Below are positions 8,012-25,026 of a stretch of 64,000 nt of DNA, piece after piece. Source of the DNA: Candidatus Aldehydirespirator sp. (lineage in GTDB: Bacteria; Actinomycetota; Acidimicrobiia; Acidimicrobiales; Aldehydirespiratoraceae). Numbering within the stretch: position 1 is the first letter of the stretch; the number at the start of each line of letters is the position of its first letter. The stretch spans positions 4,475,068 to 4,539,067 of the forward strand of contig OZ244832.1 in assembly GCA_965220485.1 (NCBI GenBank), given 5' to 3'. The position numbers were made by a program, and so were the translations under genes. The notes under the pieces were generated by a model that saw only the letters and a program-made list of their open reading frames with translations, was not told where the DNA came from and made no database searches.

Positions 8012-8339
8012 GTGCTCCCTCCCTGGCTCCGTCGGGGGTGTTCGAGCCATCCCGACTAGAAGGTCGCAGTGTATGCCCCGGCGCATCAGGGCTGCCACCG
8101 GAAGGACCGCCCGCGCAGCCGCCGGGTCCGTCGTCGCAATTCTCGTGGAAAGGGTCTGTGTCGCCCTTACCTAAAGGGGTTTTCACCTAGCGCAATTTTG
8201 CAGGAGGGGCTTATACGGAATGGTGCCGAAGATGAGGTCGGAGCGCTAATCCGTTGTCATACCCCCTCGCTACTGTGGTGGCACGACCACGACGAAGAAG
8301 GAAACGCAGCCAGCTCCGGGCAAGCACTGGCGCAAGGGC

Positions 8340-9761: not shown

Positions 9762-10148
9762 ATGCCCCCACGCCTAGCGGTCGCTGCGCTGCTGCTGACA
9801 GCCGCCTGCGCTGGCTCGACCGCGCCATCCGCAACACCAGCGCCCACGACGACGACCGTCGCGCCCACCACGACTGTGTTCACCTACGCCGACGCGTGCG
9901 CCCAAGAGGGCGGCACGCAGGGATACAGCGCCGCCACCGGAGTCCGGGTCTGCGAGATCGAAGACGTGATCCTGTTCAGACGCGACCCCGGCGATCCTGT
10001 CGGCTTCAAGCAGCGTTGCGAGAACGAGGGCGGGGAAGTCGAAGGCGTCACAGGCACCCGTCCGTGCATGCTGCGGGGCATTTCGTGGTTCACGCCGCAC
10101 GATTGGGACGACCCTGCCACCGAGCGCTACACCTTCGATGACGGCTAA
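9762..10148 (+). CDS. small secreted lipoprotein (IS passenger gene), hypothetical
   Basis: A GGAGGAAG RBS precedes ATG 9762. The signal peptide MPPRLAVAALLLTAAC has a lipobox Cys, followed by Thr/Pro-rich mature sequence. The gene lies inside the IS boundaries. Confidence 0.5.
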   Translation: MPPRLAVAALLLTAACAGSTAPSATPAPTTTTVAPTTTVFTYADACAQEGGTQGYSAATGVRVCEIEDVILFRRDPGDPVGFKQRCENEGGEVEGVTGTRPCMLRGISWFTPHDWDDPATERYTFDDG

Positions 10149-10185
10149 CCGCCCGCAACCCGAGTAGCGGACTAGGGTGGCCGCA

Positions 10186-10365
10186 TGGCAGCACCGAAGC
10201 GCCCAGACCGCTGGGACGGCTGGGACGACCCCGACTACACCCCAACCCAAACCGAACTAGAAGAACCCATCACCCTCAAAGACATCGAGGACGCGACCCC
10301 CGAAGACCTAGCCAAAGCCATCATGCGACCCATCAAAGGACCATCGTCCAATCAGCCCGGCTAGA
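10186..10365 (+). CDS. possible 59-aa acidic ORF inside IS right arm (hypothetical; below ORF-track cutoff)
   Basis: ATG…TAG reading frame MAAPKRPDRWDGWDDPDYTPTQTELEEPITLKDIEDATPEDLAKAIMRPIKGPSSNQPG. Its A-ending codon usage is atypical for the host, and there is no clear RBS. Confidence 0.15.
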
Positions 10366-10909
10366 CCGGTTTCGGCACCATCCCGTATAAGCCCCTTGCA
10401 GGAAAGGCCGCGCCTCGCTGGGAGGAGATGACGCCGGTGTCGAAGCCGGCCAGGTGCAGGCCGCCACCGAAGCGGGCGTGCTCGATCTTGAGGCACCGGT
10501 CCATCACCACGTCGAGCCCGGCGGCGGTGCAGCGCCGGGCGGCCTCGGCGCTCCACAGCCCGAGCTGCACCCAGAACGCGGAGGCGCCGGAGGCGATGGC
10601 CTCCTCGGCGACGGCGGGCAGGTCCTCGGACCGGCGGAACACGTCGACGATGTCGGGCGTGACCGGCACATCCGCGAGTGACCCGTACACCCGACGGCCG
10701 AGGATCTCGCTCCCGGCCGCTCGGGGGTTCACCGGGTACACGTCGAAGTCGGTGGAGGACGACAGCAGGTAGGTGAGAACGAAGTTGCTGGCCCGGGCCG
10801 GGTTGGACGAGGCACCGACGACTGCCACCGAGTGCGAGCGGTCCAGGATGCGCCGGCGCTCCCTCGCGGTCGGCGGCGTCCAGCCCTCCACGGGCGGATG
10901 CTCAGCCAT
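10361..10909 (-). CDS. CoA-binding domain protein (YccU/YneT family, PF13380-like)
   Basis: Starts [10 protein letters not shown]… with motifs SVAVVGASSNPARASNF… and …VMDRCLKIEHARF. The ATG overlaps the metY stop by 8 nt (ATGGCTGA). The last ~14 codons are encoded by the IS1595 right end. Confidence 0.7.
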   Translation of the reverse strand: MAEHPPVEGWTPPTARERRRILDRSHSVAVVGASSNPARASNFVLTYLLSSSTDFDVYPVNPRAAGSEILGRRVYGSLADVPVTPDIVDVFRRSEDLPAVAEEAIASGASAFWVQLGLWSAEAARRCTAAGLDVVMDRCLKIEHARFGGGLHLAGFDTGVISSQRGAAFPARGLYGMVPKPV

Positions 10910-12323: not shown

Positions 12324-12827
12324 GTGACGATGGTCTCGTTCAGCGTCGAAACGATCGCCTTCGAGTCAGCGGACACTTCTCCGGTTGTCGGAGAGATGGA
12401 GGGCCTGGAGGCCCGGGGCGACGGTCAGGGCTGGATCAACATCGGCCCCGGGCTGCGAGACGACCAGATCGACCGGCTGCCGCCGCCGACGGTGCTGGGA
12501 CGCTGGTTCTCAGGACGGGGGCCGGCGGTGCCGATGGCGACGTGGACTCCGCCTCGGGGAGTTCCAGGCTCCATGCCGCCGACCTTGGGCGTTGAGCACG
12601 GCGCGGGCCCCAAAGCCCTGGACCTGCTCCGTGACGCCGGGGCGCCGCTGCCTGCCGGCTGGCGCAAGGTGCAGGACCACGCCAAGCACGGAATCGTCGC
12701 CCATCCATCGTCTCAAGCGTCCCACCACGACGTGCTGCTCTGGCTCCTGTCGGTGTGCTGGGCGCTGTGCCCCATAGACATAGAGGACAACTGGCTGGCA
12801 GAAATCCACCGCCCTCCTAGGAGTTGA
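12324..12827 (+). CDS. hypothetical protein (167 aa) at left edge of inserted island
   Basis: The ORF has high GC3 and no recognisable domain. Its last codons plus stop fall within the repeated 11-mer CTAGGAGTTGA (12817-12827). Confidence 0.2.
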   Translation: MTMVSFSVETIAFESADTSPVVGEMEGLEARGDGQGWINIGPGLRDDQIDRLPPPTVLGRWFSGRGPAVPMATWTPPRGVPGSMPPTLGVEHGAGPKALDLLRDAGAPLPAGWRKVQDHAKHGIVAHPSSQASHHDVLLWLLSVCWALCPIDIEDNWLAEIHRPPRS

Positions 12828-13013
12828 AGCCTGGACCCACCGATGGGACTGTGGTCTCTCACCAAATCTGCACGGATTGTGCTCGCATACGACGCGTTTC
12901 TCTACAGATTTCGGGACACCAGCGCTTCATGGTTGGGGTAAGTCCATCGCATGGTCTAACGGGCCGACCTGAAATGCCATACATTGTCACAGGGATTGGC
13001 TACCTTTGGGATC

Positions 13014-15932
13014 ATGGCCACCACTGAGCCGACCGTCAACACCTACGTGGCCCAATCGTTACGGACCATGCACCCGCGCTGGGCCGAGAGGGGCGCGATC
13101 GTCTCGCAGGCGACTGGGTTGATCGCTGGCGACAAGGGCAAGCAGCCCGACATCATGGTCCGCGTCCCGGGCGCAGCTCCTTTGGTGATCGAGGCCGAGT
13201 TCTACCCGGCGCGCACCCTGGAGGACGACGCGCTGAGCCGTGTGGGCGCTCAGACCGCCAACAGGTTCAGGCCCATCGAGACGGTCGTTGCGCTGCGCTA
13301 TCCGCGGCGTCTGCGCGATGTGCCCGAGACCGGCCTGGCCGAGGAATTGGCAAAGTGCGACGACTTGGAGTGGTGCGTGTGGACGGAAGGGCCCAGCAAC
13401 GTCAGGTTCCCGTCCGATGGCTGGGTGCGAAGCAGCTTGCCCCACTTGGCCAGCGCGATCGAGGTGGTGGCGGTGTCGCCGCGCCGCATCGACACGGCGG
13501 CGGACCGAATGGAACTGGGCGTCCTGCACGGCTCGGCTCTGCTGGCCGAGGCCGGCACGACGACCCAAGCCAAGCTGGCCGAACTCTTGCACCAGGAGGC
13601 CGGCGAGCAGACAACGAGGATGGCGGCGTCGGTCATCATCAACGCTTTCCTGTTCCAGATCGCGGTGGCGTCCAGCCACGGCACTCCGGGGATCGAGGCG
13701 ACCGCCGCCGCTTCGGGGGATCCGGAGCATCTGAGCAAGGCGGACGTGCTCGACGTCTGGAAGCAGATCCTGCGAATCAACTACTGGCCGGTATTCGACA
13801 TAGCCCGCAGGCTGCTGCTGCCGATCAGTCAGCCCGTTGCTGACGAACTATGCCAGAGGCTAGGCCAGACGGCCTTGAGCCTGGCCGCTACCGGCGCCGT
13901 CGAGGTGCAGGACCTCGCGGGACAGATGTTCGGGAGGCTGATCGCCGACCGCAAGTTCCTGGCCACCTTCTACACGCTGCCCGAGTCGGCCGCCCTCTTG
14001 GCTGAGCTGGCGGTGTCGCGCCTCGACACCGAAGTCGACTGGTCCGACGCGACGGCCGTGACCGACCTGCGGATCGGGGACCTGGCCTGCGGGACCGGTG
14101 CGCTGCTCTCTGCGGTCTACCGGCGCATCGCGGCGAGGGTGCGCCGGGCCGGGCATGACGACGCCCGGCTCCACGCTGCGATCATGCAGGAGACGCTGAT
14201 CGGCGCCGACATAATGCCCGCCGCGGCCCACCTCACCACGACGATCCTGTCGGCCTCGCACCCGGCGATCGGATTCGGGAAGTGCGGCGTCCATGTGCTG
14301 CCCTTCGGGCGCATCCCCGGCGGCGGCGTCGCCGTGGGCTCTCTGGACCTGCTTGGCGATGCCGGGACCCTCTCGCTTCTGGGGCGGCCGGGAACCCGGC
14401 TGGCCGGGAGCATGGACGACGACGAGCCCGACGACGCCCTCGCAGCGTGCAACGTCGGCGACGGCACCCTCGACCTATGCATCATGAACCCGCCGTTCAC
14501 CCGTCCCACCAACCATGAGACGGCTGGCACAGCGGGTGTTCCGGTGCCGTCATTCGCGGGGTTCGGCACCACGGCGGACGACCAGCGGGCCATGTCGGCG
14601 CGGCTCGCCGAGTTGAGTCCGGCGGGCAACGGGCCGCGTGCCGGCCACGGTAATGCTGGCCTGGCCTCGAACTTCGTCGACTTGGCGCACGCCAAGCTGC
14701 GCCCGGGAGGAGTGTTGGCGCTGGTCCTGCCGTTCTCAGCCGCCTCCGGTGGATCCTGGGCGGGACTGCGGCGGCTCCTCGAAAGGCACTACCGCGATGT
14801 GACTGTGGCCTCCATCGCAGCCCATGGGAGCACCGCCCGCGCCTTCTCGGCCGACACCAGCATGGCGGAGATCGCGCTCGTGGCCGTCAAACGACTCGCA
14901 GACACCGCAGTCGAAGGGTCGCGGGTGAGCTGGAGCAGCCTGGCGCGCCGCCCGACGAGCATGGTCGAAGCAGTGCAGGTCGCTCGGGCCATCCACGACA
15001 GCGGGGCGCCGTCGGCGGCGCTCGGGGTGGAGGTGGGCGGCGTCCGCGTCGGATGCGTGCTACCGGGCGAGGTCTATGACGGCGGGCTCGCGGCGGTGGC
15101 CGAACCCGCCGTCGCGCATTTCGGGCTCGCACTGAGCAGATACGAGCCGAGCCTGAATCGGATCGGACACCTGCCGATTGCGGTGGTGCGGCTGGGCGAG
15201 ATGGGAAGACCCGGCCCGGTGCACCGGGACATCAGCGGCACGGACAAGACTTCCGGCGCGTATCGGGGCCCCTTCGACGTCAAGCCGCTGCTGCCCGGTC
15301 GGACCCCCTCCTATCCCGTTTTGTGGGCCCACGACGCGGCCTCGGGCCGCGAGTCGCAGATCGAGGTCCCGCCGGACACCCAGGGAAGGGTCCGAGCCGG
15401 TATGGACGAGCAGGCGCTCGGCGTGTGGGCGACGGCCACCCGCCTGCACATCAACCTCGACTTCCAGATCAACAGCCAGTCTCTGGTGGCCTGCGCCACT
15501 GCCGAGCCGTGCATCGGCGGAAGGGCCTGGCCGTCCTTCGCCCTTGACGACACGGCCTGGGAAGAGGCCGTGGCCCTGTGGATGAACACCACGCTCGGCC
15601 TGATCGCATTCTGGTTCGCAGGCAGCCGTCAGCACCAGGGACGGGCCAGTCTCACAGTCACCCGGCTGGCCGACCTGGTAGTCGTCGATCCCCGCAGTCT
15701 CACAGACGAGCAGCTTGGCGTGGCCAGCGACGTGTTCGAGCGTTTCAGGAGCCGGCCGTTGCTGCCGGCCAACGAGGCGTATCGCGACGCGACGCGCCAG
15801 GAACTGGACGAGGCTGTGCTGTGCGAGGTACTAGGGCTTCCCGCCGATGTGCTGGCTCCGCTGTCGATCCTGCGCACGCAGTGGTGCGAAGAGCCGTCGG
15901 TTCACGGAGGCAAGTCCACCCGTCCCCGCTGA
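13014..15932 (+). CDS. MmeI/PglX-like large gamma-class N6-adenine DNA methyltransferase (Type IIG/IIL RM-enzyme homologue) with degenerate N-terminal PD-ExK-like motif
   Basis: AdoMet motif I IGDLACGTGALL lies upstream of catalytic motif IV CIMNPPF, which is gamma-class order. The N-terminal segment QPDIMVRVPGAAPLVIEAEF mirrors the MmeI nuclease segment D-LFWPGILLIEMK but reads E-A-E where MmeI has E-x-K. A ~330-aa C-terminal region is a candidate TRD. A TTG at 12984 is an alternative start. Confidence 0.75.
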   Translation: MATTEPTVNTYVAQSLRTMHPRWAERGAIVSQATGLIAGDKGKQPDIMVRVPGAAPLVIEAEFYPARTLEDDALSRVGAQTANRFRPIETVVALRYPRRLRDVPETGLAEELAKCDDLEWCVWTEGPSNVRFPSDGWVRSSLPHLASAIEVVAVSPRRIDTAADRMELGVLHGSALLAEAGTTTQAKLAELLHQEAGEQTTRMAASVIINAFLFQIAVASSHGTPGIEATAAASGDPEHLSKADVLDVWKQILRINYWPVFDIARRLLLPISQPVADELCQRLGQTALSLAATGAVEVQDLAGQMFGRLIADRKFLATFYTLPESAALLAELAVSRLDTEVDWSDATAVTDLRIGDLACGTGALLSAVYRRIAARVRRAGHDDARLHAAIMQETLIGADIMPAAAHLTTTILSASHPAIGFGKCGVHVLPFGRIPGGGVAVGSLDLLGDAGTLSLLGRPGTRLAGSMDDDEPDDALAACNVGDGTLDLCIMNPPFTRPTNHETAGTAGVPVPSFAGFGTTADDQRAMSARLAELSPAGNGPRAGHGNAGLASNFVDLAHAKLRPGGVLALVLPFSAASGGSWAGLRRLLERHYRDVTVASIAAHGSTARAFSADTSMAEIALVAVKRLADTAVEGSRVSWSSLARRPTSMVEAVQVARAIHDSGAPSAALGVEVGGVRVGCVLPGEVYDGGLAAVAEPAVAHFGLALSRYEPSLNRIGHLPIAVVRLGEMGRPGPVHRDISGTDKTSGAYRGPFDVKPLLPGRTPSYPVLWAHDAASGRESQIEVPPDTQGRVRAGMDEQALGVWATATRLHINLDFQINSQSLVACATAEPCIGGRAWPSFALDDTAWEEAVALWMNTTLGLIAFWFAGSRQHQGRASLTVTRLADLVVVDPRSLTDEQLGVASDVFERFRSRPLLPANEAYRDATRQELDEAVLCEVLGLPADVLAPLSILRTQWCEEPSVHGGKSTRPR

Positions 15933-15952
15933 TCAGGACTGTCCGGTCCTAC

Positions 15953-16175
15953 TGCTAGGAGTTGATCACCGCTTCCACGATGAGGTCGATCACGGCCTGG
16001 GCGTCCGCGTCCCACACGACGTCTTGGGCGGGCGGAGCCAGCTCAGCGGCGACGGCCGCTGGTGGGCGCACGTCGGTCACGGTCATGCCCCGGGTGTGCT
16101 CGCCGCGCAGTTCCACCGCAACCGGATGGCTTGACCGGTGGAATAAGTGGGGGTGGGTGATCGCGATGATGGCGT
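15953..16175 (-). pseudogene. duplicated 3'-end fragment (~220 bp, ~85% identical) of the nucleoside hydrolase gene at 20424-20645
   Basis: Direct alignment of 15953-16175 with 20422-20645. The translated fragment …THPHLFHRSSHPVAVELRGEHTRGMTVTDVRPPAAVAAELAPPAQDVVWDADAQAVIDLIVEAVINS* matches the true gene's C-terminus and has no upstream start. Confidence 0.8.
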
Positions 16176-16298
16176 GGCACGGCGTCCCGCCCCCGGTCTG
16201 CCGCGTCGGCACGTTGAACACGGGACTGCCAACCCGCGACATTGCATGGACGACACTGAGGATTGTCGCCGTGTTGGCTCGCCGGTAGGGTCGCACCC

Positions 16299-19200
16299 AT
16301 GCGGGTGGGCTCCATCGAACTGCCGGAAGAACTGGTGGACGCGCACGCCGAGGGCCGCCTCGTCCTGTTCGTTGGCGCCGGCGCGTCTGTCGCCGAGCCA
16401 ACATGCCTGCCCACCTACCGCGAGCTGGCCGAGAAGCTGGTCGAGCAGAGCGAGAGCCTGGTCTGCCGAGCAAGCCTCGACCGGCCAGACATAGTGCTCA
16501 GCAAACTCAAGTCGGACGGCGTAGACGTCCACGGGTGCGTGCACAAGCTGATCAGCGATCCGCAGGACCGGCCCGCGCCGAGGTCGAACAAGCTTCACCA
16601 AGCCATCGCCAGCCTGGCGACGGCCTCGCCGCAGGTGAGGATCGTCACCACCAACTACGACCGCTGCCTGTCGAACTGCCTGCCGGAGGGCGTGGACGAG
16701 TATGAGGCGCACGCCCTTCCCGAACAAGACGAGTTCACAGGGTTGGTCTACCTGCACGGCTCCGTGCGCCTGCCACTAGAGCGCTTGATCGTCACCGGAG
16801 ACGACTTGGGCCGTCACTACCTGAGCAACCACGGCGCGGCCAGGTTCCTGGAGCTGATGTTCCGAAACCTGTCGGTGCTGTTCATCGGCTACAGCTTGAA
16901 AGACACGTTGATGGACTATCTGGTCAGAGGACTACGTTCGGACCGGATCTATGTCTTGACCAACAAGCCGCAGGCCTCGCAGTGGCACCAACTCCGCATC
17001 ACTCCCATCGGTTGCGAGAGCCATGACAAGTTGCCTGGCATCGTCCAAGATTGGGCGGATCTGTCTCGGATGAGCATGTTGGATCATCAGCAGCGCGTCC
17101 GCCGAATCGTCTCAGGATCACCTCCCCTGACACCGGGCGACGACTCGTATCTTCACGACATCGTCTCTGACACTCGTCGACGAGGGCTGTTCATCGGTCA
17201 GGCGCGCGGCCTCGACTGGCTGCACTGGATGAGTTCCAAACCACCCTTCAAAGAGCTTCTGGATCCGTTCGTGTCGCCCGAGCGTATCGACCACAGGTTG
17301 GCCCAATGGTTCGCTGACCACTATGCGGCCAACGAGGACAGCACCACTGAGGCGCTAAGCCTGATCGTCGATGCCGGCGGAACCCTCAACCGTGAACTCT
17401 GGATGGCGATTGCGCAGTCTCTAAGGCTCCAGTCAGGCACGCGCAGTGAGGCAATGGATAGATGGCTGGCGCTGTTGGTGGAAGCGACGCCCCCAAGTCG
17501 TGGTCAAGATCACGTACTGCTCCTCTCACTACTCTTGGACGGATGCGACCCGGAGCGAGATCGCGCTGCGGTCCTGCTCCTACTGGACAGAGTTCTAGAG
17601 CCTGCACTACAGATGCGGCGTGATCAAGGTGCCAGAGTCGTCGTACCACTGTGCCGCAACTCGTTGGCTGAGCACCGGTTCGACCAGATCAAGCCTTACA
17701 TGTCGGCTCTTGCACTGGACCTAGCCCCGATTGTAGATCGGCAGCTGCGTAGAGCCCATTGGTTGCAGCGGGCGATCCACTCTCGAACGGAACAATATGA
17801 TTCCACGACAGTGCAGTTGATGGCACAACTAGGCCAAGATGTCTCGCATGTGACGGATCGCGAGTTCTTCGACAGCACGAGCCACAGACGCAAGGCCATC
17901 GAGTCTCACAGTCGGAACAAGCTCGCGTGCGGCATTGACCTGCTGATCGATGTTGCTCGGGATGTGTTGGAGCTGCTTGTGGAACGGTCACCAACGATCG
18001 CCGGCAGCTACCTGGAGAGTTGGAGCGGAGCCGAATCGGCGCTCCTGCGACGTCTGAGCGTTCACGGCTGGTGCGAGCGGACGGACGTGACCGCTGACGA
18101 GAAGCTGAAGTGGCTCACGAACGACGACTGGCTTGACGACCGGGACGCACATCACGAGGTGATGCGGCTGATCGCCACGGTCGCGCCGTCTGCCTCGGAG
18201 GGCGCGCTCGGTGGGCTGATTGAGCGTGCGTCGTCGGATTCGGTTGGCTGGAGAGAATTGAGACTCCTAGGTTGGATCGCACGGCACGCGCCCCAGTCGA
18301 TTGCGGCCCGCCGGGCTTTCGAGGCAGCGAAGAGGGCTCATACCCAGTGGAAGATGCCGAAGGATGCAGACTTCCGGGGCGGCGAAATCACGGGTGGGCA
18401 TATTCCGCTTCTACCGATTCGCGAGGCACATGAACTGCACGAACTCATCAGACAAGAACCACCGGAAGCGGTTGCACTGCTGCAGAAGTACGCCGACGTT
18501 GACGATTGGGAGGCTCCGGGATGGCTTTCGGCTATGGATGCTCTGCGTGCCACGGTAGAGGAGCATCCTGACGACGGTGTCAGCGTTCTTGAGGTGATCG
18601 CAGACGATACCGAGATCGATGCTGCAGTCAGTCAGAGCATCGCCGAGACAGTGTTCGGCGTGCTGAGCCGCATCGAGCAATCCCGCAGTCAGATCGATCA
18701 GTTGCAGGCCGTTCTCCCGAAGGTGTGGAAGACCGGCCTTGAGCGCTTCAACCCCCAGAGCCATGTCGTGAGTCCGTCGAGATGGATCGACGCCGCCATA
18801 AATCATTGGGCGGGCAAGTTGGCAGAACTGTGGATCGCCATCATCGCCGCTCAGTGGCGGAATGCTGGCGAGACGTGGGCCGGTCTCTGCAACACTACGA
18901 GTGCAGCGCTTAGAGAACTCTTGGCCGACGACAGTCAGGCATCGCACCATGCTCAGGCCGTACTGGCCAGCAAGGTGGCTTACTTGTTTGCAGCTGACCA
19001 GAAGTGGTGCCAAGACAACCTGCTACATCGTTTCGACAGTGAACGAGACAGCCTGCAGGCGTTTCGATTCTGGGACGGACTCTTGGGAAGCGGCCAACTG
19101 AGCGACGATCTATTGCAGGCTGGACTCTTGGACTATTTTGTCGGCTTCAGCCGCCAGCTCGAGGGCGGTGAGGAGAGGACAGGGGGCGGCGATGAGTCGA

Positions 19201-19871
19201 TTCGATCATCATATCTGGAGGCGGCAGCCGCCATTTGTCTTCAGAGTCAGATCAATCCTATGGAGCACGGTTGGCTCAGGAAGTGGATCTCTAGAATGGA
19301 CGCGAGCGGTCGCTGCGAGTGGGCTAGGATCGTGGCCTGGATGTTGTCGGAGATGTCGGCAGACGCCGCTGACGTTCACTGGTCGAGATGGATAAAAGGC
19401 TACTGGCAGAATCGAGTTGACAGCATCCCGCTGGCCCTCACGCCGGATGAGTCATCAGCGATGGTCGAGTGGACGGTACTGTTGGAAGCTGGTTTCACGG
19501 AAGCCGTTGAATTGGTAGCTTCCACCGAAGCCAGCTTTGTGAGGGAATCTCATATTCCTTCAGTGCTTTTAGATCACGCTGGGGCTGATGGCGACCGCTC
19601 GCGGCCGGATCATATCGCCCTTGAACCGCTAGTCGTGCGCGACCTCCTCGCGCATCTTCTCTCTAACAGCGAGACCACGGCTGATGACGATGGTCCTTGG
19701 AGCATCACGGACGCTGTCGAGCGGCTCGACCGAGCCCTCGACGAAGACGAGATGAAGCCCATATTGAACGAGCTGCTCAGACTCGGACACGAGGAGTTTG
19801 TCTCATGGCTTCAATCTCGGGAGCGAACGCAACAGGATCTCTTGTCGCCGGTGGGGTCGCCGCCTGGCTGA
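16299..19871 (+). CDS. DSR1-like antiphage protein: N-terminal SIR2 (SIR2_2/ThsA-type, NADase) domain + ~900-aa alpha-helical repeat C-terminal region
   Basis: The SIR2_2 motifs LVLFVGAGAS, IVTTNYDRCL, LVYLHGSV and VLFIGYSLKD are present. Total length is 1202 aa (tool ORF from 16263). GC is lower than its surroundings. Confidence 0.75.
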   Translation: MRVGSIELPEELVDAHAEGRLVLFVGAGASVAEPTCLPTYRELAEKLVEQSESLVCRASLDRPDIVLSKLKSDGVDVHGCVHKLISDPQDRPAPRSNKLHQAIASLATASPQVRIVTTNYDRCLSNCLPEGVDEYEAHALPEQDEFTGLVYLHGSVRLPLERLIVTGDDLGRHYLSNHGAARFLELMFRNLSVLFIGYSLKDTLMDYLVRGLRSDRIYVLTNKPQASQWHQLRITPIGCESHDKLPGIVQDWADLSRMSMLDHQQRVRRIVSGSPPLTPGDDSYLHDIVSDTRRRGLFIGQARGLDWLHWMSSKPPFKELLDPFVSPERIDHRLAQWFADHYAANEDSTTEALSLIVDAGGTLNRELWMAIAQSLRLQSGTRSEAMDRWLALLVEATPPSRGQDHVLLLSLLLDGCDPERDRAAVLLLLDRVLEPALQMRRDQGARVVVPLCRNSLAEHRFDQIKPYMSALALDLAPIVDRQLRRAHWLQRAIHSRTEQYDSTTVQLMAQLGQDVSHVTDREFFDSTSHRRKAIESHSRNKLACGIDLLIDVARDVLELLVERSPTIAGSYLESWSGAESALLRRLSVHGWCERTDVTADEKLKWLTNDDWLDDRDAHHEVMRLIATVAPSASEGALGGLIERASSDSVGWRELRLLGWIARHAPQSIAARRAFEAAKRAHTQWKMPKDADFRGGEITGGHIPLLPIREAHELHELIRQEPPEAVALLQKYADVDDWEAPGWLSAMDALRATVEEHPDDGVSVLEVIADDTEIDAAVSQSIAETVFGVLSRIEQSRSQIDQLQAVLPKVWKTGLERFNPQSHVVSPSRWIDAAINHWAGKLAELWIAIIAAQWRNAGETWAGLCNTTSAALRELLADDSQASHHAQAVLASKVAYLFAADQKWCQDNLLHRFDSERDSLQAFRFWDGLLGSGQLSDDLLQAGLLDYFVGFSRQLEGGEERTGGGDESIRSSYLEAAAAICLQSQINPMEHGWLRKWISRMDASGRCEWARIVAWMLSEMSADAADVHWSRWIKGYWQNRVDSIPLALTPDESSAMVEWTVLLEAGFTEAVELVASTEASFVRESHIPSVLLDHAGADGDRSRPDHIALEPLVVRDLLAHLLSNSETTADDDGPWSITDAVERLDRALDEDEMKPILNELLRLGHEEFVSWLQSRERTQQDLLSPVGSPPG

Positions 19872-19905
19872 GCACAAGCCTCTCAGCAGATGAACAGGCA
19901 ATGCT

Positions 19906-20385
19906 GTGAGGGTTGCGCGGACTCGCGCCTTCGATCAGTGGCTGGAGGACATCACCGACATCAGGTCTCCGGTGTACTTGGGCGAGTCGTGCCGACATGT
20001 GCAAGATCAGGTCGAGGCACTGATCGACATCCTATCGGCTGCCGAACACCCCGTCGGCAGGCCGGATGGTGCGCCGCTGCGGGGCAGTCGGTACGCGCTG
20101 CACGAACTGAGATGGCCGCGGCTGGATCGAGGTGAAGGCCCGGACGTTCGGAGCGGACAGCCGGTTGTACGCGTGTTCTACGGGCTGGTGGGCAGAAGAT
20201 TCGAGCGTGCCGGGAGCCGAGGCCCGATCGCAGTCATGCTGCTCGGCGGAAACAAGACGTCGGCGATCGCGGGGTCCGGCTCACAGGATCGATGGTATGC
20301 GGATCACATCCGTCTCGCAGAGGCGCGCCTCGAACAGTGGTGCGCTGACCATCCCACGCTGATGCCTATCCGGGCGAGCCGATAG
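19906..20385 (+). CDS. RelE/ParE-superfamily 'addiction module killer' protein (COG3657/TIGR02683-like), orphan (no adjacent antitoxin)
   Basis: The N-terminus …FDQWLEDITD… is followed by …ELRW…PVVRVFYGLVG…IAVMLLGGNKTS…WYADHIRLAEARLEQW. No HTH antitoxin ORF lies between it and the convergent hydrolase gene. Confidence 0.5.
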   Translation: MRVARTRAFDQWLEDITDIRSPVYLGESCRHVQDQVEALIDILSAAEHPVGRPDGAPLRGSRYALHELRWPRLDRGEGPDVRSGQPVVRVFYGLVGRRFERAGSRGPIAVMLLGGNKTSAIAGSGSQDRWYADHIRLAEARLEQWCADHPTLMPIRASR

Positions 20386-20423
20386 CCGTCCGGCGCGTCC
20401 GTGGGACGCAAGTCCAGCCGCCG

Positions 20424-21374
20424 CTAGGAGTTGACCACTGCCTCCACGATCAGGTCGATGACTGCATGGGCGTCGGCGTCCCACACCACGTCGTGGGCGG
20501 GCGGAGCTGGCTCAGCGGCGATGGCGGCCGGAGGGCGCACGTCGGTGACGGTCATGCCTCGGGTGTGCTCACCGCGCAACTCCACCGTCACCGGGTGGCG
20601 CGACCGGCGGAACAGGTGCGGGTGCGTGACGCAGATGACGGCCGTGGCGTCATGCACCGGGGCCGCTTCCAGGCCGAACTCCCGGCACCGGTCGTAGGCG
20701 AACTCCAGGAGGCCGGCCGCGAAGTCGGCCGCCGGGGTACCGGCTGAGCGCATCCGGGCCGCTTCGTCGCCTCCGAGCAGCACCCTGTGGGTGACGTCGA
20801 GGCCGACCATGGTGATCGGCGCCGCCTCGGAGAACACGATGGCGGCCGCCTCGGGGTCGGCCCACACATTGAACTCGGCTACGGAGGTGACGTTGCCGGT
20901 GTGGGCGCCGCCCCCCATGATGGTGAGCCCGGCCAGATGGCTCCGCAGGTCGGGGTCGCGCCTCAGCGCGAGGGCCACGTTGGTGAGGGGCCCGACCGCC
21001 ACCAGGTGCAGGTCGTCGACGGAGCGGGCCATGTCGCACAGGTAGGCCACGGCGTCCTCGGAGGCCACGGTCCGGGTCAGCTCGGGCAGGGCCACGTCTC
21101 CCAGCCCGGTGGCCCCGTGGATGCGGGCCGCGTCCATGGTGGGGGCGATCAGCGGCCGGGCCGAGCCCCGGTGCACGGGTACCTCCAGGCTGGCGATCTG
21201 CGCGGTCACCAGCGCGTTGTGGGTGGTGTGCTCGATGCCCACGTTGCCGTTGACGGCAGTGATCCCCACCAGCTCGCCGTGGTGGGCCGCGGTGAGGATG
21301 GCGATGGCGTCGTCGAGCCCAGGGTCGCAGTCCAGAACGATCCGGGGCCGGGCCGGTGCCGCGTCGACGGTCAC
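20424..21374 (-). CDS. inosine-uridine preferring nucleoside hydrolase (IUNH/Rih family)
   Basis: The 316-aa ORF has the signature RIVLDCDPGLDDAIAIL and the Ca-binding Asp cluster. Confidence 0.9.
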   Translation of the reverse strand: MTVDAAPARPRIVLDCDPGLDDAIAILTAAHHGELVGITAVNGNVGIEHTTHNALVTAQIASLEVPVHRGSARPLIAPTMDAARIHGATGLGDVALPELTRTVASEDAVAYLCDMARSVDDLHLVAVGPLTNVALALRRDPDLRSHLAGLTIMGGGAHTGNVTSVAEFNVWADPEAAAIVFSEAAPITMVGLDVTHRVLLGGDEAARMRSAGTPAADFAAGLLEFAYDRCREFGLEAAPVHDATAVICVTHPHLFRRSRHPVTVELRGEHTRGMTVTDVRPPAAIAAEPAPPAHDVVWDADAHAVIDLIVEAVVNS

Positions 21375-21383
21375 GGGCCGAGC

Positions 21384-22361
21384 CTAGGCGCCGAGCAGGC
21401 GATCGACCTCGTCCCTTGTCGGCAGGGAGGGCTGGGCACCGGGTCGCAGCGTGGCGGCGGTGCCCACCCGCACGGCCCAGCGGGCCGCACCCACTAGATC
21501 GGCTCCGTCCGCCAGGGCGTCGGCGAGCGCTCCGCAGAAGGCGTCGCCAGCTGCGGTGGTGTCGACCGGCACGACCGCCGGCGCGGGCACGTGAGTTGCC
21601 TCGCTGGGTGTGACGACCATCGCCCCGGCCGCTCCCAGGGTCACCACCACGGCCGCGACCGGCAGCCCGCGGGCCAGTGCCACTGCGGTCGCGGGGTCCA
21701 CGTCGCCGATGGCGGACAGTCCGGCGTGGCCGGCCATCGTGGCCAACTCGGTCTGGTTGGGCACGAGCACGTCCACGCCGTCGAGCACATCGGGGGGCAA
21801 CGGCGCGGCCGGTGCAGGAGCGGGATTCAGCACCACGAGGCCACGGGCGGTACTCACCGCGGCCGCAACCGCCTCGAGGGGCACCTCGAGCTGCAGCAGC
21901 ACCACCGCCGCGGCCTTGACCGCCTCGGCGGACTCCGCCACATCGGCGGCGCTGACGCGGCCGTTGGCGCCCGGGCTCACCACGACGGTGTTGTCGCCGT
22001 CGGCGCCCACCGCGATCAGCGCGAGGCCACTCGGGGTGTCGGTGGTGGTGTGCAGGCTGGTCGTGTCGACGTCGGCGGAGGCAAGCGCCGTCCTCAGGAT
22101 CGATCCAGCGTCGTCGTCGCCGACCCGTCCTACCATGGCCACTCGCCGGCCGAGGCGGGCCGCGGCGACGGCCTGGTTGGCGCCCTTGCCGCCGGGGATT
22201 TGTCGCAGATCGCCGCCGAGCACGGTCTCGCCCGCCACCGGGATCGTTGCCACGTCCACCACCAAGTCGAGGTTGGCGCTCCCCACCACGACCACCTCGG
22301 CGCGAGCGCTCTCCTGCCCGTCTCTGCAGGCAGTCCCGGTCGCGTCGTGCGCCTCGCTCAT
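21384..22361 (-). CDS. rbsK: ribokinase (PfkB family)
   Basis: The 325-aa protein starts at ATG 22361 behind a GGGAGGTG RBS. It has VVVVGSANLDL, the GG dipeptide, and the anion hole DTTAAGDAF. The 499-aa tool ORF is a run-on. Confidence 0.85.
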   Translation of the reverse strand: MSEAHDATGTACRDGQESARAEVVVVGSANLDLVVDVATIPVAGETVLGGDLRQIPGGKGANQAVAAARLGRRVAMVGRVGDDDAGSILRTALASADVDTTSLHTTTDTPSGLALIAVGADGDNTVVVSPGANGRVSAADVAESAEAVKAAAVVLLQLEVPLEAVAAAVSTARGLVVLNPAPAPAAPLPPDVLDGVDVLVPNQTELATMAGHAGLSAIGDVDPATAVALARGLPVAAVVVTLGAAGAMVVTPSEATHVPAPAVVPVDTTAAGDAFCGALADALADGADLVGAARWAVRVGTAATLRPGAQPSLPTRDEVDRLLGA

Positions 22362-22427
22362 CGCCACCTCCCGCTTCACACAGTCACACTGCTTCCCCAC
22401 TGTAGGGTCGCCGGCATGGACCGGCTG

Positions 22428-22835
22428 CTTGAGTTTGCTGGCGGGGCCGTTCCGGCGGAGGCTGTGACTTGGCGCTTCGGCCCCTCGGGCGGGCCCGGCG
22501 GCCAGCACGCCAACCGGTCGAGCACGCGGGTGGAGGCTGTCCTCGACCTCACAACGGCTGGCGACATGGTGCCGGAGGCCCGTGAGCGGCTCATCGACCA
22601 GTTCGGTGCCGAGATGCGGGTGGTGGTGGACGACACGCGGTCGCAGGCTCGCAACCGCGACATTGCGCTCGACCGTCTGCAGGCGCGGCTTCGCGACGGT
22701 GTCGCCGTCACCAAGCCGAGGAAGCCGACCCGCCCGTCGGGGCGGTCCCGCCGACGTCGCCTCGACAAGAAGCGCCAGCGGTCCGAGACCAAGCGAGGCC
22801 GAGGCCGCATCGACCTGTCCGACATCGACGGCTAG
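22428..22835 (+). CDS. arfB: alternative ribosome-rescue factor ArfB (peptidyl-tRNA hydrolase, GGQ motif)
   Basis: The 135-aa protein has PSGGPGGQHANRSSTRV and a basic C-terminal tail (KPRKPTRPSGRSRRRRLDKKRQRSETKRGRGR). It is divergent from rbsK. Confidence 0.85.
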   Translation, partial: LEFAGGAVPAEAVTWRFGPSGGPGGQHANRSSTRVEAVLDLTTAGDMVPEARERLIDQFGAEMRVVVDDTRSQARNRDIALDRLQARLRDGVAVTKPRKPTRPSGRSRRRRLDKKRQRSETKRGRGRIDLSDIDG

Positions 22836-23101
22836 CAGCGCCGCCGGTTCGGGTTCGGGGGGCGGCCGCGCTCCACGTCGCATCGACCTGTCCAGCTTCG
22901 ACGGCTAGCTGTGTGAACCGTCCGGTTGGCCGGCCGTGAACCGCCGACTTGCATGCGGGTGCCGGCGGCGGCACGGGCGGTGAGCGCAGTACCGGAATCA
23001 AAAGTTGACTGAACTGGTCGGTTTTTGGCTGGCGGGGTTCTACACTCCCCCGACACCACGCGCTCACCCGGAGCGGTGGAGGTAGGGAGACGTGCATCCA
23101 A

Positions 23102-23668
23102 TTGGCAACCAACACAACCACCGCACCCGCCGACAACGGCGTGAACGTCCAAGCGCTGCTCGGCGCCCGCCAGGCTCTCAGCGGGGCACCCGAGGCGGCT
23201 CAGTTCACCTGGAAGGCCAGCAACGAATGGTTGTACGGCACCCACAGCCGCTCCTCGGTCGAGAGCTACTTCGGGCTCGGGGCCGAGCACGATCATCGCT
23301 CGGTCTTTACCTTCGAGGCCGATCATCCCGAGGTGTTCGCGGCTGAGGACAACGCGGCCACGCCGGTCGAGCTGGTTCTGGTGGGCTTGGCCAGCTGCCT
23401 CACCGCCGGGGTGGCTGCCGTGGCCCAGAATCGTGACATCCAGCTCCGATCGGTGAAGGCCACTCTCGAGGGCAGCATGGACATCCTGGGCATCCTCGGC
23501 GGTGACGCGGATGTCCGCAACGGTTTCAACGGCGTCAAGGTCTCCTACGACATCGACGCGGACGCCACCCCGGACGAGATCCGAGCCTTGGTGGCCCAGT
23601 CGCAGAAGCGGTCGGCCGTCTACGACATCATTACCAATCCGACCAATGTGACCGTCAAGGTCAACTGA
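23102..23668 (+). CDS. OsmC/Ohr-family peroxiredoxin-like protein
   Basis: The 188-aa ORF (TTG start) has an OsmC fold signature with two conserved Cys (…LVGLASCLTAG…). Confidence 0.7.
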   Translation: MATNTTTAPADNGVNVQALLGARQALSGAPEAAQFTWKASNEWLYGTHSRSSVESYFGLGAEHDHRSVFTFEADHPEVFAAEDNAATPVELVLVGLASCLTAGVAAVAQNRDIQLRSVKATLEGSMDILGILGGDADVRNGFNGVKVSYDIDADATPDEIRALVAQSQKRSAVYDIITNPTNVTVKVN

Positions 23669-23690
23669 CGGACTCACAGCCGGCGGACTC

Positions 23691-24995: not shown

Positions 24996-25026
24996 TGGGC
25001 TCGAGCACGGGCCCGCCCGCCGCGGA

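What the first reader, a model, noticed from the sequence alone, without database searches (positions are those of the whole stretch)
12984..20385. Possible three-gene module: MmeI-like MTase + SIR2 effector + RelE-like toxin, all co-oriented
All three genes are on the + strand with short gaps (366 bp and 34 bp). If they are co-transcribed, this would be an unusual modification-plus-NADase-plus-toxin arrangement; no known system pairs an MmeI-like MTase with a DSR1-type SIR2. The intervening hydrolase fragment suggests separate acquisitions instead. Both readings are open.
Basis: inference. Interest (0 to 1): 0.55.

Follow-up and report, generated by a model that had tools for sequence, protein, structure and literature searches.

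The report
Two separate defence cassettes, not one module
The three neighbouring genes are not one system: a stand-alone restriction-modification-type enzyme sits beside a separately acquired pair made of a DSR1-like NAD-destroying anti-phage protein and a small toxin-like partner that has no antitoxin gene, all in a variable chromosomal hotspot of a high-GC Acidimicrobiia-like bacterium.

Summary
Three co-oriented ORFs lie at 12984-15932, 16299-19871 and 19906-20385, with gaps of 366 and 34 bp. A 224-nt nucleoside-hydrolase fragment sits in the first gap.

The three-gene module does not hold.
- **Empty site.** Three relatives (ORF1 96%, 85% and 76% identical) have metY-up167-ORF1-hydrolase with no SIR2 gene and no ORF3.
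- **Decayed or missing ORF1.** Other relatives keep DSR1+ORF3 beside an internally deleted ORF1, or with no ORF1 at all.
- **Different order.** One relative has DSR1 upstream of ORF1 and lacks ORF3.
- **Outside the lineage.** 0 of 80 ORF1-homologue loci carry DSR1 or ORF3. None of 75 distant DSR1 loci carries an ORF1 homologue.
- **Composition and ancestry.** A GC drop and mosaic DNA identity indicate that 16179 to about 22300 has a different ancestry from ORF1.

ORF1 is a solitary type IIG/IIL-like enzyme (fold closest to BpuSI, PglX and DrdV). It is not an MmeI-family member by sequence.

DSR1+ORF3 is a real two-gene unit. It recurs in four diverged clades (DSR1 100/43/38/32% identity, ORF3 100/39/36/33%), on the same strand with a 25-34 nt gap where measured. 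It has its own conserved upstream region, and both genes are under similar purifying selection. ORF3 is a divergent Gp49/HigB-like (RelE/ParE) protein whose canonical relative has an HTH antitoxin; here there is none. That pairing is the only moderately novel element.

The parts
12324..12827 (+). Conserved hypothetical gene ('up167', 167 aa), a core neighbour and not part of any cassette
   Evidence: It has no Pfam hit. It is present downstream of metY in every related locus where that region is on the contig, whether or not ORF1 or DSR1 is there. Among the 80 distant ORF1 loci it is found only in L001, which is the same locus.
13014..15932 (+). ORF1 (mechanical ORF from 12984): solitary type IIG/IIL-like enzyme with an N-terminal PD-(D/E)XK-like domain, a gamma-class N6-adenine methyltransferase and a C-terminal target-recognition-like region
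   Evidence: - MTase motifs: motif I DLACGTG and motif IV NPPF (502-505) are invariant in 60 homologues.
- Candidate nuclease: invariant P55-D56...E70, with E72 nearly invariant, lie on an alpha-beta-beta-beta-alpha-beta N-terminal domain of the AF2 model (pLDDT 84, pTM 0.89).
- Fold: Foldseek top hits are BpuSI type IIG (2e-15), PglX/BrxX, DrdV and CamA.
- Sequence libraries: PADLOC MTase_II 3e-11 and mad2 6e-8; no MmeI Pfam domains.
- Context: no conserved neighbour in 80 loci.
15955..16178 (-). Remnant of the resident nucleoside-hydrolase allele (3' end, aa 245-316), a scar of the insertion
   Evidence: It is 84% identical to 20424-20642. It is contiguous at 95.9% identity with the ORF1-hydrolase junction of the empty-site relative L081, and it keeps the L082-like 22-nt spacer after the ORF1 stop. 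The same scar is present in L088.
16179..16234 (.). Junction filler of unknown origin between the hydrolase scar and the DSR1 cassette
   Evidence: It aligns only with L088. It matches neither hydrolase genes nor the L083, L087 or L091 sequence upstream of the cassette.
16235..16298 (+). Conserved DSR1 upstream region, promoter/operator-like (TTGTCG, 17 nt, TAGGGT, 7 nt, ATG; possibly a leaderless transcript)
   Evidence: It is nearly invariant in six loci in which four different sequences lie upstream of it: hydrolase scar, intact ORF1, ORF1 remnant, or up167. It is the left edge of homology in all contexts. The consensus sigma-70 scan did not call it. The promoter reading is inference.
16299..19871 (+). 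DSR1-like defence sirtuin (1190 aa): N-terminal SIR2 NADase domain plus a long helical region ending in DUF4020
   Evidence: - Pfam: SIR2_2 4.8e-16; DUF4020 2.9e-6, above its cut-off.
- PADLOC Dsr1 2.3e-41.
- NCBIfam Dsr1 202 bits against a cut-off of 1400.
- TTNYD (T129, T130 and D133 invariant, N131 nearly invariant) and LHG (H165 invariant) across 26 homologues.
- GC 60% and GC3 0.71, against 0.86-0.92 in the neighbours.
19906..20385 (+). ORF3 (159 aa): divergent Gp49/HigB-like (RelE/ParE superfamily) protein. It is the obligate-looking partner of this DSR1 subfamily and has no antitoxin gene.
   Evidence: - No direct hit in Pfam, PADLOC, NCBIfam or PHROGs.
- The family is tiny: 15 representatives in 1.84 billion.
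- Distant members hit Pfam Gp49 PF05973 (E 6e-6 to 2e-3, one above the gathering score) and the PHROG 'toxin' family.
- hhalign of the DSR1-linked subgroup against the Gp49-hitting subgroup gives 99.9%, E 9e-35.
- dN/dS is 0.19-0.30 in nine of ten pairs.
- It lies downstream of DSR1 in four diverged clades.
- Only 38 nt separate its stop from the convergent hydrolase stop.
20424..21374 (-). Intact inosine-uridine nucleoside hydrolase gene. Its allele has a different ancestry from the ORF1 segment.
   Evidence: Pfam IU_nuc_hydro 3.7e-88. It is 85% identical to L081, whereas the flanks are 95-96% identical.
16179..22300 (.). Tract of foreign ancestry (DSR1 + ORF3 + hydrolase + most of PfkB) within a backbone that is 95-96% conserved
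   Evidence: Window vs L081 DNA identity by segment:
- 12970-16178: 95.9%
- 20427-21390: 85.4%
- 21382-22298: 81.1%
- 22402-22868: 92.3%
- 22879-24997: 95.9%

Window vs L088 is contiguous at 88.8% over 15321-22298. The right edge is approximate.

Best explanation
The interval is a variable defence-gene hotspot between core genes (metY/up167 on the left, the RF-1-domain gene and OsmC on the right) in a high-GC, Acidimicrobiia-like chromosome. It holds two independent units.

**Unit 1: ORF1.** ORF1 is a solitary single-polypeptide enzyme of type IIG/IIL restriction-modification architecture. It most likely methylates adenine at its own recognition site and, if the N-terminal D56/E70/E72 domain is active, cuts unmodified DNA. 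It needs no partner gene.

**Unit 2: DSR1 + ORF3.** This is a two-gene operon with its own conserved upstream region: a DSR1-like SIR2 NADase followed 34 nt later by ORF3.
- DSR1 most likely senses a phage component through its long helical C-terminal region and depletes NAD+. This is inferred from experimentally studied DSR1/DSR2.
- ORF3 descends from a Gp49/HigB-type toxin whose canonical relative is neutralised by a downstream HTH antitoxin. In this DSR1 subfamily the antitoxin gene is gone.
- My preferred and still speculative reading is that ORF3 is held in check by, or works through, DSR1 itself, as a second effector or a co-sensor.

**How unit 2 arrived.** It came by recombination, not with ORF1. 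A donor segment carrying DSR1-ORF3-hydrolase(-PfkB) replaced the resident hydrolase. One end was anchored by homology. The other end joined illegitimately about 224 nt inside the resident hydrolase 3' end, which left the fragment at 15955-16178. This is a pattern like homology-facilitated illegitimate recombination.

**Status of each step.**
- Shown: independence of the units, the insertion scar, mosaic ancestry, and the conserved DSR1-ORF3 pairing.
- Inferred: enzymatic activities, the promoter, the recombination mechanism, and the role of ORF3.
For: **Empty site.** L081 (ORF1 96%), L082 (85%) and L001 (76%) have CoA_binding-metY-up167-ORF1-IU_nuc_hydro-PfkB with no DSR1 or ORF3.

**All combinations exist at this locus.**
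- ORF1 + DSR1 + ORF3: window, L083-86, L088.
- DSR1 placed before ORF1, with no ORF3: L087.
- DSR1 + ORF3 beside an internally deleted ORF1 (aa 5-152 joined to 879-981): L089, L090, L092.
- DSR1 + ORF3 with no ORF1: L091.
- No ORF1, and a second DSR1/ORF3 pair beyond PfkB: L168, L169.

**Family-wide counts.** 0/80 ORF1 loci have DSR1 or ORF3 within 10 kb. ORF1 has no conserved neighbour at all. Of 79 DSR1 loci, only three carry ORF1 sequence. Those three are same-locus relatives, and what they carry is the internally deleted remnant.

**Scar and mosaic ancestry**. GC is 60% and GC3 0.71 for DSR1, against 0.86-0.92 for the neighbours.

**The DSR1-ORF3 pair is conserved.**
- Four clades with co-divergence of 43/39, 38/36 and 32/33% identity.
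- Same strand throughout. The gap is 34 nt in the window and 25-31 nt in L088b, L172 and L173.
- Similar dN/dS in both genes.
- A conserved private upstream region in six loci, with four kinds of upstream neighbour.

**ORF3 identity**. A distant family member (P0258, locus L170) is followed by an overlapping HTH_37 gene, which is a canonical toxin-antitoxin arrangement.

**ORF1 fold**.

**Literature.** DSR1 is a single-gene NAD+-depleting system (10.1101/2021.12.14.472415). HFIR is a documented mechanism (PMC3240628).
Against: - DSR1 lies directly next to ORF1 in two different gene orders (window type and L087). In an unrelated genome (L172) a DSR1+ORF3 pair is convergent with a different 976-aa type IIG-like enzyme. 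Some selective or functional synergy between a restriction-type enzyme and DSR1 therefore cannot be excluded.
- No transcript data exist, so read-through from ORF1 into DSR1 is possible.
- ORF3's fold was not confirmed: the AF2 model has pLDDT 51 and the Foldseek hits are meaningless.
- One DSR1 (L087) lacks ORF3, and the ORF3b copies in L168/L169 appear frameshifted. ORF3 may therefore be dispensable.
- The nuclease activity of ORF1 is unproven, because the usual Lys is replaced by Glu.
- Most comparison sequences are MAG or metagenome contigs, some at low coverage, so individual frameshifts may be assembly errors.
Confidence: 0.8

Rival explanations
1. One reading: ORF1, DSR1 and ORF3 form one co-transcribed, co-functional system that combines modification, an NADase and a toxin.
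For: The three genes are co-oriented with short gaps. The same three-gene order occurs in L083-86 and L088. DSR1 is also adjacent to ORF1 in L087, in another order.
Against: - The closest relatives have ORF1 without DSR1/ORF3.
- Others have DSR1+ORF3 with a deleted or absent ORF1.
- Co-occurrence outside the locus is 0/80 and 0/75.
- The insertion scar, separate ancestry and GC difference all point to separate origins.
- DSR1 carries its own conserved upstream region whatever lies upstream of it.
Confidence: 0.05
2. ORF3 is not a DSR1 partner. It is the orphaned toxin half of a decayed toxin-antitoxin pair that hitch-hikes with DSR1, either neutralised in trans or inactive.
For: - Family relatives are canonical toxin + HTH antitoxin pairs.
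- L087 carries DSR1 without ORF3.
- ORF3b looks frameshifted in L168 and L169.
- Experimentally studied DSR1 works as a single gene.
- About 60 distant DSR1 loci with at least 600 nt of downstream sequence have no ORF3-like gene. The exception is L122, where a typical Gp49-type toxin lies about 500 nt downstream at the contig end.
Against: - The pair persists through divergence down to 32-33% identity in four clades, with the same order and a 25-34 nt gap where measured, at three or more different genomic sites.
- ORF3 dN/dS is 0.19-0.30 in nine of ten pairs, like DSR1.
- The residues conserved in the canonical subgroup are kept: R69, R89, K117, W130, Y131.
- A decaying remnant would not co-diverge and stay intact this long.
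Confidence: 0.15
3. ORF1 and DSR1 are separate systems, but their adjacency is selected. A restriction-type first line and an NAD+-depleting second line act synergistically, so the hotspot repeatedly assembles this combination.
For: There are two different ORF1/DSR1 orders at this locus (window, L087). In L172 an unrelated type IIG-like enzyme is convergent with a DSR1+ORF3 pair. Clustering of defence genes into islands is established knowledge.
Against: ORF1 is lost or degraded next to an intact DSR1+ORF3 in L089-L092. ORF1 occurs alone in the closest relatives. There is no association in 80 + 75 loci elsewhere. Three instances are too few to distinguish this from ordinary defence-island clustering.
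Confidence: 0.15

Closest known systems
DSR1 (defence-associated sirtuin 1; Gao et al. 2020, Garb et al. 2022)
   Same: A protein of about 1200 aa with an N-terminal SIR2 domain (conserved TTNYD Asn and LHG His) and C-terminal DUF4020. PADLOC and NCBIfam Dsr1 are the best hits. The expected activity is phage-triggered NAD+ depletion.
   Different: It scores 202 bits against the NCBIfam equivalog cut-off of 1400, so it is a distant subfamily. Published DSR1 is a single-gene system, whereas this subfamily carries a conserved downstream Gp49/HigB-like gene.
Type IIG / IIL restriction-modification enzymes (BpuSI; MmeI family incl. DrdV) and BREX PglX
   Same: A single polypeptide of about 970 aa with an N-terminal nuclease-like domain, a gamma-class N6-adenine MTase (NPPF) and a C-terminal recognition region. 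The best structural matches are BpuSI, PglX/BrxX and DrdV. It is a solitary gene, like type IIG/IIL enzymes.
   Different: There is no MmeI_* or Eco57I Pfam hit and only weak sequence similarity. The candidate catalytic triad is D...E-x-E, not D...E-x-K. No BREX genes lie nearby. Its homologues come from MAGs of many phyla, many of them apparently sponge-associated, and some genomes carry several copies.
Gp49/HigB-like toxins of the RelE/ParE superfamily (Pfam PF05973), toxin-first toxin-antitoxin modules
   Same: ORF3 is homologous over its full length to a subgroup that hits Gp49 (hhalign 99.9%). The secondary-structure order (two helices, a beta-sheet, a C-terminal helix) is compatible with this fold. 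A distant member has the canonical downstream HTH antitoxin.
   Different: ORF3 itself is not recognised by Pfam. It has an insertion (ELRWP...RGxGP...). It has no antitoxin gene. It is fixed directly downstream of a DSR1 gene.
Defence islands / integration hotspots between core genes; homology-facilitated illegitimate recombination
   Same: The cargo varies between conserved flanks, alleles are mosaic, and remnants of lost genes survive (the hydrolase scar, the ORF1 deletion, a 120-nt DSR1b remnant in L081). The pattern of one homologous and one illegitimate junction fits HFIR (PMC3240628).
   Different: There is no integrase, transposase or tRNA at the cassette. The mechanism is inferred from the sequence alone.

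Membership tests
DSR1 defence sirtuin | N-terminal SIR2 domain with the catalytic Asn and His | tested here: met
   SIR2_2 4.8e-16. In TTNYD, T129, T130 and D133 are invariant and N131 is nearly invariant; in LHG, H165 is invariant, across 26 homologues.
DSR1 defence sirtuin | Length of about 1200 aa with a C-terminal DUF4020 region | tested here: met
   1190 aa. DUF4020 scores 27.6 bits against a cut-off of 22.7. PADLOC Dsr1 2.3e-41.
DSR1 defence sirtuin | Reaches the curated equivalog score (NCBIfam NF041818, 1400 bits) | tested here: not met
   202.5 bits. It is DSR1-like in architecture but not an equivalog.
DSR1 defence sirtuin | Acts as a single-gene system | tested here: inconclusive
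   In four clades of this subfamily a conserved partner gene follows DSR1. L087 and about 60 distant DSR1 loci lack such a gene.
DSR1 defence sirtuin | Phage-triggered NAD+ depletion | not testable with these tools
   This needs an infection assay with NAD+ measurement, as in 10.1101/2021.12.14.472415.
Type IIG/IIL restriction-modification enzyme (MmeI-like) | Gamma-class N6-adenine MTase motifs I and IV | tested here: met
   DLACGTG and NPPF are invariant in 60 sequences. The MTase core superposes on BpuSI, DrdV and CamA.
Type IIG/IIL restriction-modification enzyme (MmeI-like) | N-terminal PD-(D/E)XK nuclease with catalytic D...(D/E)XK | tested here: inconclusive
   D56 and E70 are invariant and E72 is nearly invariant. 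They lie on an alpha-beta-beta-beta-alpha-beta domain. The Lys position is Glu. No domain-level structural test or activity test was done.
Type IIG/IIL restriction-modification enzyme (MmeI-like) | Sequence membership of the MmeI family (Pfam MmeI_N, MmeI_hel, MmeI_Mtase, MmeI_TRD, MmeI_C) | tested here: not met
   No MmeI domain is hit at E <= 0.1. PADLOC REase_MTase_IIG reaches only 4e-4.
Type IIG/IIL restriction-modification enzyme (MmeI-like) | Stand-alone gene with no separate partner | tested here: met
   No neighbour family is shared by more than 8 of 80 loci, and none is positionally fixed.
BREX (PglX methyltransferase) | Embedded in a brxA/B/C-pglX-pglZ-brxL cluster | tested here: not met
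   The neighbours are metabolic genes, and no neighbours are conserved. The only similarity is of fold, to PglX.
RelE/ParE superfamily, Gp49/HigB-like toxin | Profile match to PF05973 or relatives | tested here: inconclusive
   ORF3 has no direct hit. The link is transitive: its profile finds P0258-P0266 at E 3e-10 to 1.6e-4 in 1.84 billion sequences. Six of these hit Gp49, and P0261 scores above the gathering score. hhalign gives 99.9%.
RelE/ParE superfamily, Gp49/HigB-like toxin | RelE-like fold | tested here: inconclusive
   The AF2 model has pLDDT 50.7. The order of secondary-structure elements is compatible, but the Foldseek hits are meaningless.
RelE/ParE superfamily, Gp49/HigB-like toxin | Adjacent cognate antitoxin gene | tested here: not met
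   Only 38 nt separate the ORF3 stop from the convergent hydrolase stop, and DSR1 lies 34 nt upstream. The canonical relative in L170 does have an overlapping HTH_37 gene.
Proposed three-gene MTase+SIR2+toxin system | Components co-occur across genomes | tested here: not met
   They co-occur only at this one hotspot in one lineage. All partial combinations exist there. Elsewhere the counts are 0/80 and 0/75.

The most novel reading that the evidence does not exclude
A subfamily of DSR1 defence sirtuins has captured a Gp49/HigB-type toxin and discarded its antitoxin, creating a two-component system. In this reading the large SIR2 protein itself restrains the small RNase-like toxin, acting as its 'antitoxin', and releases or activates it on phage sensing. 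Alternatively the toxin-derived protein serves as the trigger sensor. Either way NAD+ depletion would be coupled to translation shut-off.
Probability: 0.3. Interest if true: 0.65.

Novelty: new variant of a known kind. Interest (0 to 1): 0.4.

Why it matters
The proposed exotic three-part system can be set aside, which saves experimental effort.

What remains useful:
1. **A natural series of haplotypes at one hotspot.** The series includes the empty site, the insertion scar, gene decay and a second insertion slot. It documents how defence cassettes are swapped by recombination without integrases.
2. **A DSR1 subfamily with a fixed, antitoxin-less HigB/Gp49-like partner.** DSR1's trigger and regulation are poorly understood, and a conserved accessory protein gives a concrete handle for studying them.
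3. **A large, uncharacterised family of solitary type IIG-like enzymes.** It is spread across many phyla, judging by record titles largely in sponge-associated MAGs, and is often multi-copy. It is a candidate source of new restriction specificities.

Tried and rejected
- **ORF3 structure.** The AF2 model of ORF3 from 11 close homologues gave pLDDT 51, and its Foldseek search gave only noise.
- **PDB sequence searches.** Profile searches for ORF3 and ORF1 gave nothing significant beyond the MTase motif I region of BrxX.
- **Promoter/terminator scan.** The consensus scan was uninformative in this 68% GC DNA: 1 promoter-like site against 1.0 expected.
- **Mobility genes.** I looked for a tRNA, integrase or transposase bounding the DSR1 cassette and found none. 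The window has no tRNA. The only transposase, IS1595 at 8340-9290, is 7 kb away in a different insertion.
- **up167 as an ORF1 partner.** Rejected. It is present where ORF1 is absent (L091, L168, L169), and among the 80 distant ORF1 loci it is found only in L001.
- **BREX or MADS membership for ORF1.** The PglX and mad2 hits are weak, and this was rejected for lack of any conserved neighbours.
- **L172.** I checked whether it shows a second ORF1-DSR1 association. The 976-aa neighbour there is a different enzyme with no tblastn match to ORF1.
- **Third 'CTAGGAGTTGA' copy at 12817.** This is an 11-nt chance match, not another scar.

Full report

Yes. The window is about 68% GC. Three ORFs lie on the + strand:

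| ORF | Mechanical coordinates | Length |
|---|---|---|
| ORF1 | 12984-15932 | 982 aa |
| ORF2 | 16263-19871 | 1202 aa |
| ORF3 | 19906-20385 | 159 aa |

- Homologue lengths of 971-976 aa for ORF1 and 1190 aa for ORF2, and the aligned ORF2 start, put the likely starts at 13014 and 16299.
- The first gap contains a direct repeat. Window 15954-16173 is 84% identical to 20423-20642.
- That repeat is the last about 72 codons of the intact minus-strand nucleoside-hydrolase gene at 20424-21374 (Pfam IU_nuc_hydro 3.7e-88; tblastn).

**2. What the three genes are**

*ORF2: a DSR1-like defence sirtuin.*
- Pfam gives SIR2_2 at 4.8e-16 and DUF4020 above its cut-off.
- PADLOC gives Dsr1 at 2.3e-41.
- NCBIfam gives Dsr1 at 202 bits, far below the 1400-bit equivalog cut-off.
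- The SIR2 motifs TTNYD (N131) and LHG (H165) are conserved across 26 homologues.

*ORF1: a type IIG/IIL-like enzyme.*
- Sequence hits are weak: PADLOC MTase_II 3e-11, mad2 6e-8, PglX 3e-4, type IIG 4e-4. No MmeI Pfam domain is hit.
- The AlphaFold2 model is good (pLDDT 84, pTM 0.89).
- Its best PDB matches are the type IIG enzyme BpuSI (2e-15), BREX PglX/BrxX, the MmeI-family enzyme DrdV and CamA.
- Motif I (DLACGTG) and motif IV (NPPF) are invariant in 60 homologues.
- P55-D56 and E70 are also invariant, and E72 is nearly invariant. They sit on an N-terminal alpha-beta-beta-beta-alpha-beta domain, the PD-(D/E)XK topology, with Glu in place of the usual Lys. The nuclease assignment is inference.

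*ORF3: a divergent Gp49/HigB-like protein.*
- It has no direct hit in Pfam, PADLOC, NCBIfam or PHROGs.
- Its family is tiny: 13 clusters in the 5.8-billion-sequence search and 15 representatives in 1.84 billion.
- The more distant members hit Pfam Gp49 (PF05973, RelE/ParE clan) at E 6e-6 to 2e-3, one above the gathering score. They also hit a PHROG 'toxin' family.
- hhalign joins the DSR1-linked subgroup to the Gp49-hitting subgroup at 99.9% probability, E 9e-35.
- One such distant member (P0258, locus L170) is followed by an overlapping HTH_37 gene, the canonical toxin-then-antitoxin layout.
- In the window there is no room for an antitoxin. The ORF3 stop is 38 nt from the convergent hydrolase stop.
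- The AF2 model of ORF3 was poor (pLDDT 51) and its Foldseek hits are noise. The fold is therefore unconfirmed.

**3. Are they one module? Comparative evidence says no**

*From the ORF1 side.*
- ORF1 belongs to a large family of proteins of about 970 aa (2450 hits).
- The family occurs in MAGs of Acidimicrobiia, Chloroflexota, Latescibacterota, Alpha- and Gammaproteobacteria, Acidobacteriota, Gemmatimonadota, Cyanobacteria and others. Record titles such as 'Candidatus Poriferisodalis' suggest that many are sponge-associated. Up to four copies occur in one genome.
- In 80 species-level loci with 10-kb flanks, tblastn found DSR1 in 0 and ORF3 in 0. An ORF3 profile HMM found nothing.
- No neighbouring gene family is conserved. 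ORF1 is a solitary gene.

*From the DSR1 side.*
- Of 79 metagenome loci, only three contain ORF1 sequence. All three are close relatives at the same locus, and what they contain is an internally deleted remnant (aa 5-152 joined to 879-981).

*At the locus itself.* Relatives show these gene orders (slot-B genes beyond PfkB are described below the table):

| Loci | Arrangement |
|---|---|
| L081 (ORF1 96%), L082 (85%), L001 (76%) | metY-up167-ORF1-hydrolase-PfkB; the empty site |
| Window, L083-86, L088 | up167-ORF1-DSR1-ORF3-hydrolase (up167 off-contig or not detected in L084, L085, L088) |
| L087 | up167-DSR1-ORF1-hydrolase; no ORF3 |
| L089, L090, L092 | ORF1 remnant-DSR1-ORF3 |
| L091 | up167-DSR1-ORF3-hydrolase; no ORF1 |
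| L168, L169 | up167-hydrolase-PfkB; no ORF1 |

- A second, paralogous DSR1b+ORF3b pair occupies another slot, beyond PfkB, in L088, L091, L168 and L169 (in L088 and L169 it lies between PfkB and the RF-1-domain gene).
- L081 retains a 120-nt remnant of DSR1b at the same place.
- Every combination of presence and absence exists, so neither unit needs the other.

**4. How DSR1+ORF3 got there**

- DSR1 has 60% GC and GC3 of 0.71, against GC3 of 0.86-0.92 in the neighbours.
- Window vs L081 DNA identity changes by segment:

| Window segment | Content | Identity to L081 |
|---|---|---|
| up to 16178 | ORF1 and the hydrolase fragment | 95-96% |
| 20427-21390 | intact hydrolase | 85% |
| 21382-22298 | PfkB | 81% |
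| 22402-22868 | RF-1-domain gene region | 92% |
| 22879-24997 | downstream backbone | 96% |

- The fragment keeps the 22-nt ORF1-hydrolase spacer seen in L082. It is therefore the resident allele, and the intact hydrolase came in with the cassette.
- The cassette's left edge (16235) is the same in all contexts.
- L088 shares the scar. L083 has a clean insertion without it.
- The tract has no recombinase and the window has no tRNA.
- The simplest mechanism is one homologous crossover on the right and an illegitimate join inside the hydrolase 3' end on the left. This is the pattern of homology-facilitated illegitimate recombination (PMC3240628). It is inference.

**5. DSR1+ORF3 is a genuine pair**

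- It occurs in four diverged clades, and the two proteins diverge in step:

| Clade | Loci | DSR1 identity | ORF3 identity |
|---|---|---|---|
| a | window type | 100% | 100% |
| b | L088, L091, L168, L169 (second copy) | 43% | 39% |
| d | L173, L174 | 38% | 36% |
| c | L172 | 32% | 33% |

- ORF3 is on the same strand in every case. The gap after DSR1 is 34 nt in the window and 25-31 nt in L088b, L172 and L173, at three or more distinct genomic sites.
- dN/dS is 0.19-0.30 for ORF3 in nine of ten pairs (0.57 in the least diverged pair) and 0.23-0.35 for DSR1.
- The 64 nt upstream of the DSR1 start are nearly invariant in six loci, although four different sequences lie upstream of them.
- That region contains TTGTCG, 17 nt, TAGGGT, 7 nt, ATG. 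This is a plausible private promoter, possibly giving a leaderless transcript. The promoter reading is inference, and the generic scan was uninformative.
- About 60 more distant DSR1 loci with enough downstream sequence lack any ORF3-like gene. The exception is L122, where a typical Gp49-type toxin lies about 500 nt downstream at the contig end. Published DSR1 is a single-gene system.
- The pairing is therefore a trait of one DSR1 subfamily.

**6. Mechanism**

- ORF1 most likely acts alone as a combined methyltransferase/endonuclease.
- DSR1 most likely depletes NAD+ after sensing a phage component, by analogy with characterised DSR1 and DSR2.
- ORF3 keeps the residues conserved across the canonical toxin subgroup: R69, R89, K117, W130, Y131. 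It lacks an antitoxin.
- I favour a role tied to DSR1, as a second effector restrained by DSR1 or as a co-sensor. This is speculative.
- The main rival is a hitch-hiking orphan toxin. L087 lacks ORF3, and ORF3b appears frameshifted in L168 and L169.

**7. Caveat on synergy**

- DSR1 abuts ORF1 in two different gene orders.
- In L172 a DSR1+ORF3 pair is convergent with a different 976-aa type IIG-like enzyme that has no tblastn match to ORF1.
- This looks like ordinary defence-island clustering, but selected synergy cannot be excluded.

**8. Verdict**

- The 'separate acquisitions' alternative is confirmed.
- The novelty that remains is the DSR1 + antitoxin-less Gp49/HigB-like pair, a new variant of a known kind, together with an uncharacterised solitary type IIG-like family.

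Noticed in passing
window 8023-10421 (IS1595-type transposase ORF 8340-9290, +): This is a 2.4-kb insertion relative to L082, between the CN_hydrolase and CoA-binding genes. It carries a DDE_Tnp_IS1595 transposase. In L081 and L169 the same slot holds AAA_14/DUF4143 and SLH genes, so it is a second variable slot.
   Followed up: partly
window 49297-51260 (+): A low-GC islet (53-58% GC against 68% for the window) encodes an AAA_21 ATPase (456 aa, 8.8e-36) followed by an overlapping RloB-like protein (198 aa, 8.7e-23). This looks like an AbiL/OLD-type two-gene defence pair, and so another likely horizontally acquired defence cassette.
   Followed up: partly
L081 14985-15101: A remnant of about 120 nt of the second DSR1 paralogue (aa 100-140, 71% identical) lies between PfkB and the RF-1-domain gene, exactly where L088 carries an intact DSR1b+ORF3b and where the copies in L091, L168 and L169 also follow PfkB. 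It is evidence of past loss.
   Followed up: yes
L089 1007-1760 (also L090, L092): ORF1 is reduced to an in-place internal-deletion remnant (aa 5-152 joined to 879-981) directly upstream of an intact DSR1+ORF3. In L088 ORF1 is split into 766- and 153-aa pieces. That contig has only 5x coverage, so this may be an assembly error.
   Followed up: partly
L001-L080 (ORF1-family loci): The ORF1 family is spread at 40-50% identity over at least ten phyla. Nearly all the records are MAGs whose titles suggest sponge or marine-host metagenomes. One Hyphomonadaceae genome (OZ253505.1) has four copies, and four other assemblies (OY282380.1, OZ253587.1, JAPOSW01, CAZEZF01) each have two. Four loci have a tyrosine-integrase-like gene just downstream.
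   Followed up: no
L172 2430-9402: In an unrelated genomic context (SURF1 ... aminotransferase), a DSR1 (32% identical) + ORF3-like (33% identical) pair is convergent with a different 976-aa enzyme. That enzyme has a D...ETK nuclease motif, DPACGSG and NPPW, so it is type IIG/MmeI-like. It has no tblastn match to ORF1.
   Followed up: partly
window 21384-22883 (-) and 22416-22835 (+): The 499-aa 'PfkB' ORF is over-extended; homologues are 300-328 aa. Its upstream part overlaps a real RF-1-domain gene of 139 aa on the opposite strand, which is 94% identical to the L081 gene.
   Followed up: partly
window 24998-29344: This is a segment of about 4.3 kb that is absent from L081 and L082. It holds two large minus-strand ORFs (25027-26826 and 26823-28448). 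The corresponding region in L083 encodes Bmp, BPD_transp_2 and ABC_tran transporter genes. It is a metabolic variable region, not a defence one.
   Followed up: no
L170 7471-16459: The canonical ORF3-family toxin + HTH_37 antitoxin pair sits next to a DndB/TGT/DpdD (Dpd-like DNA-modification) gene cluster. It is preceded by an overlapping 176-aa ORF of unknown function.
   Followed up: no
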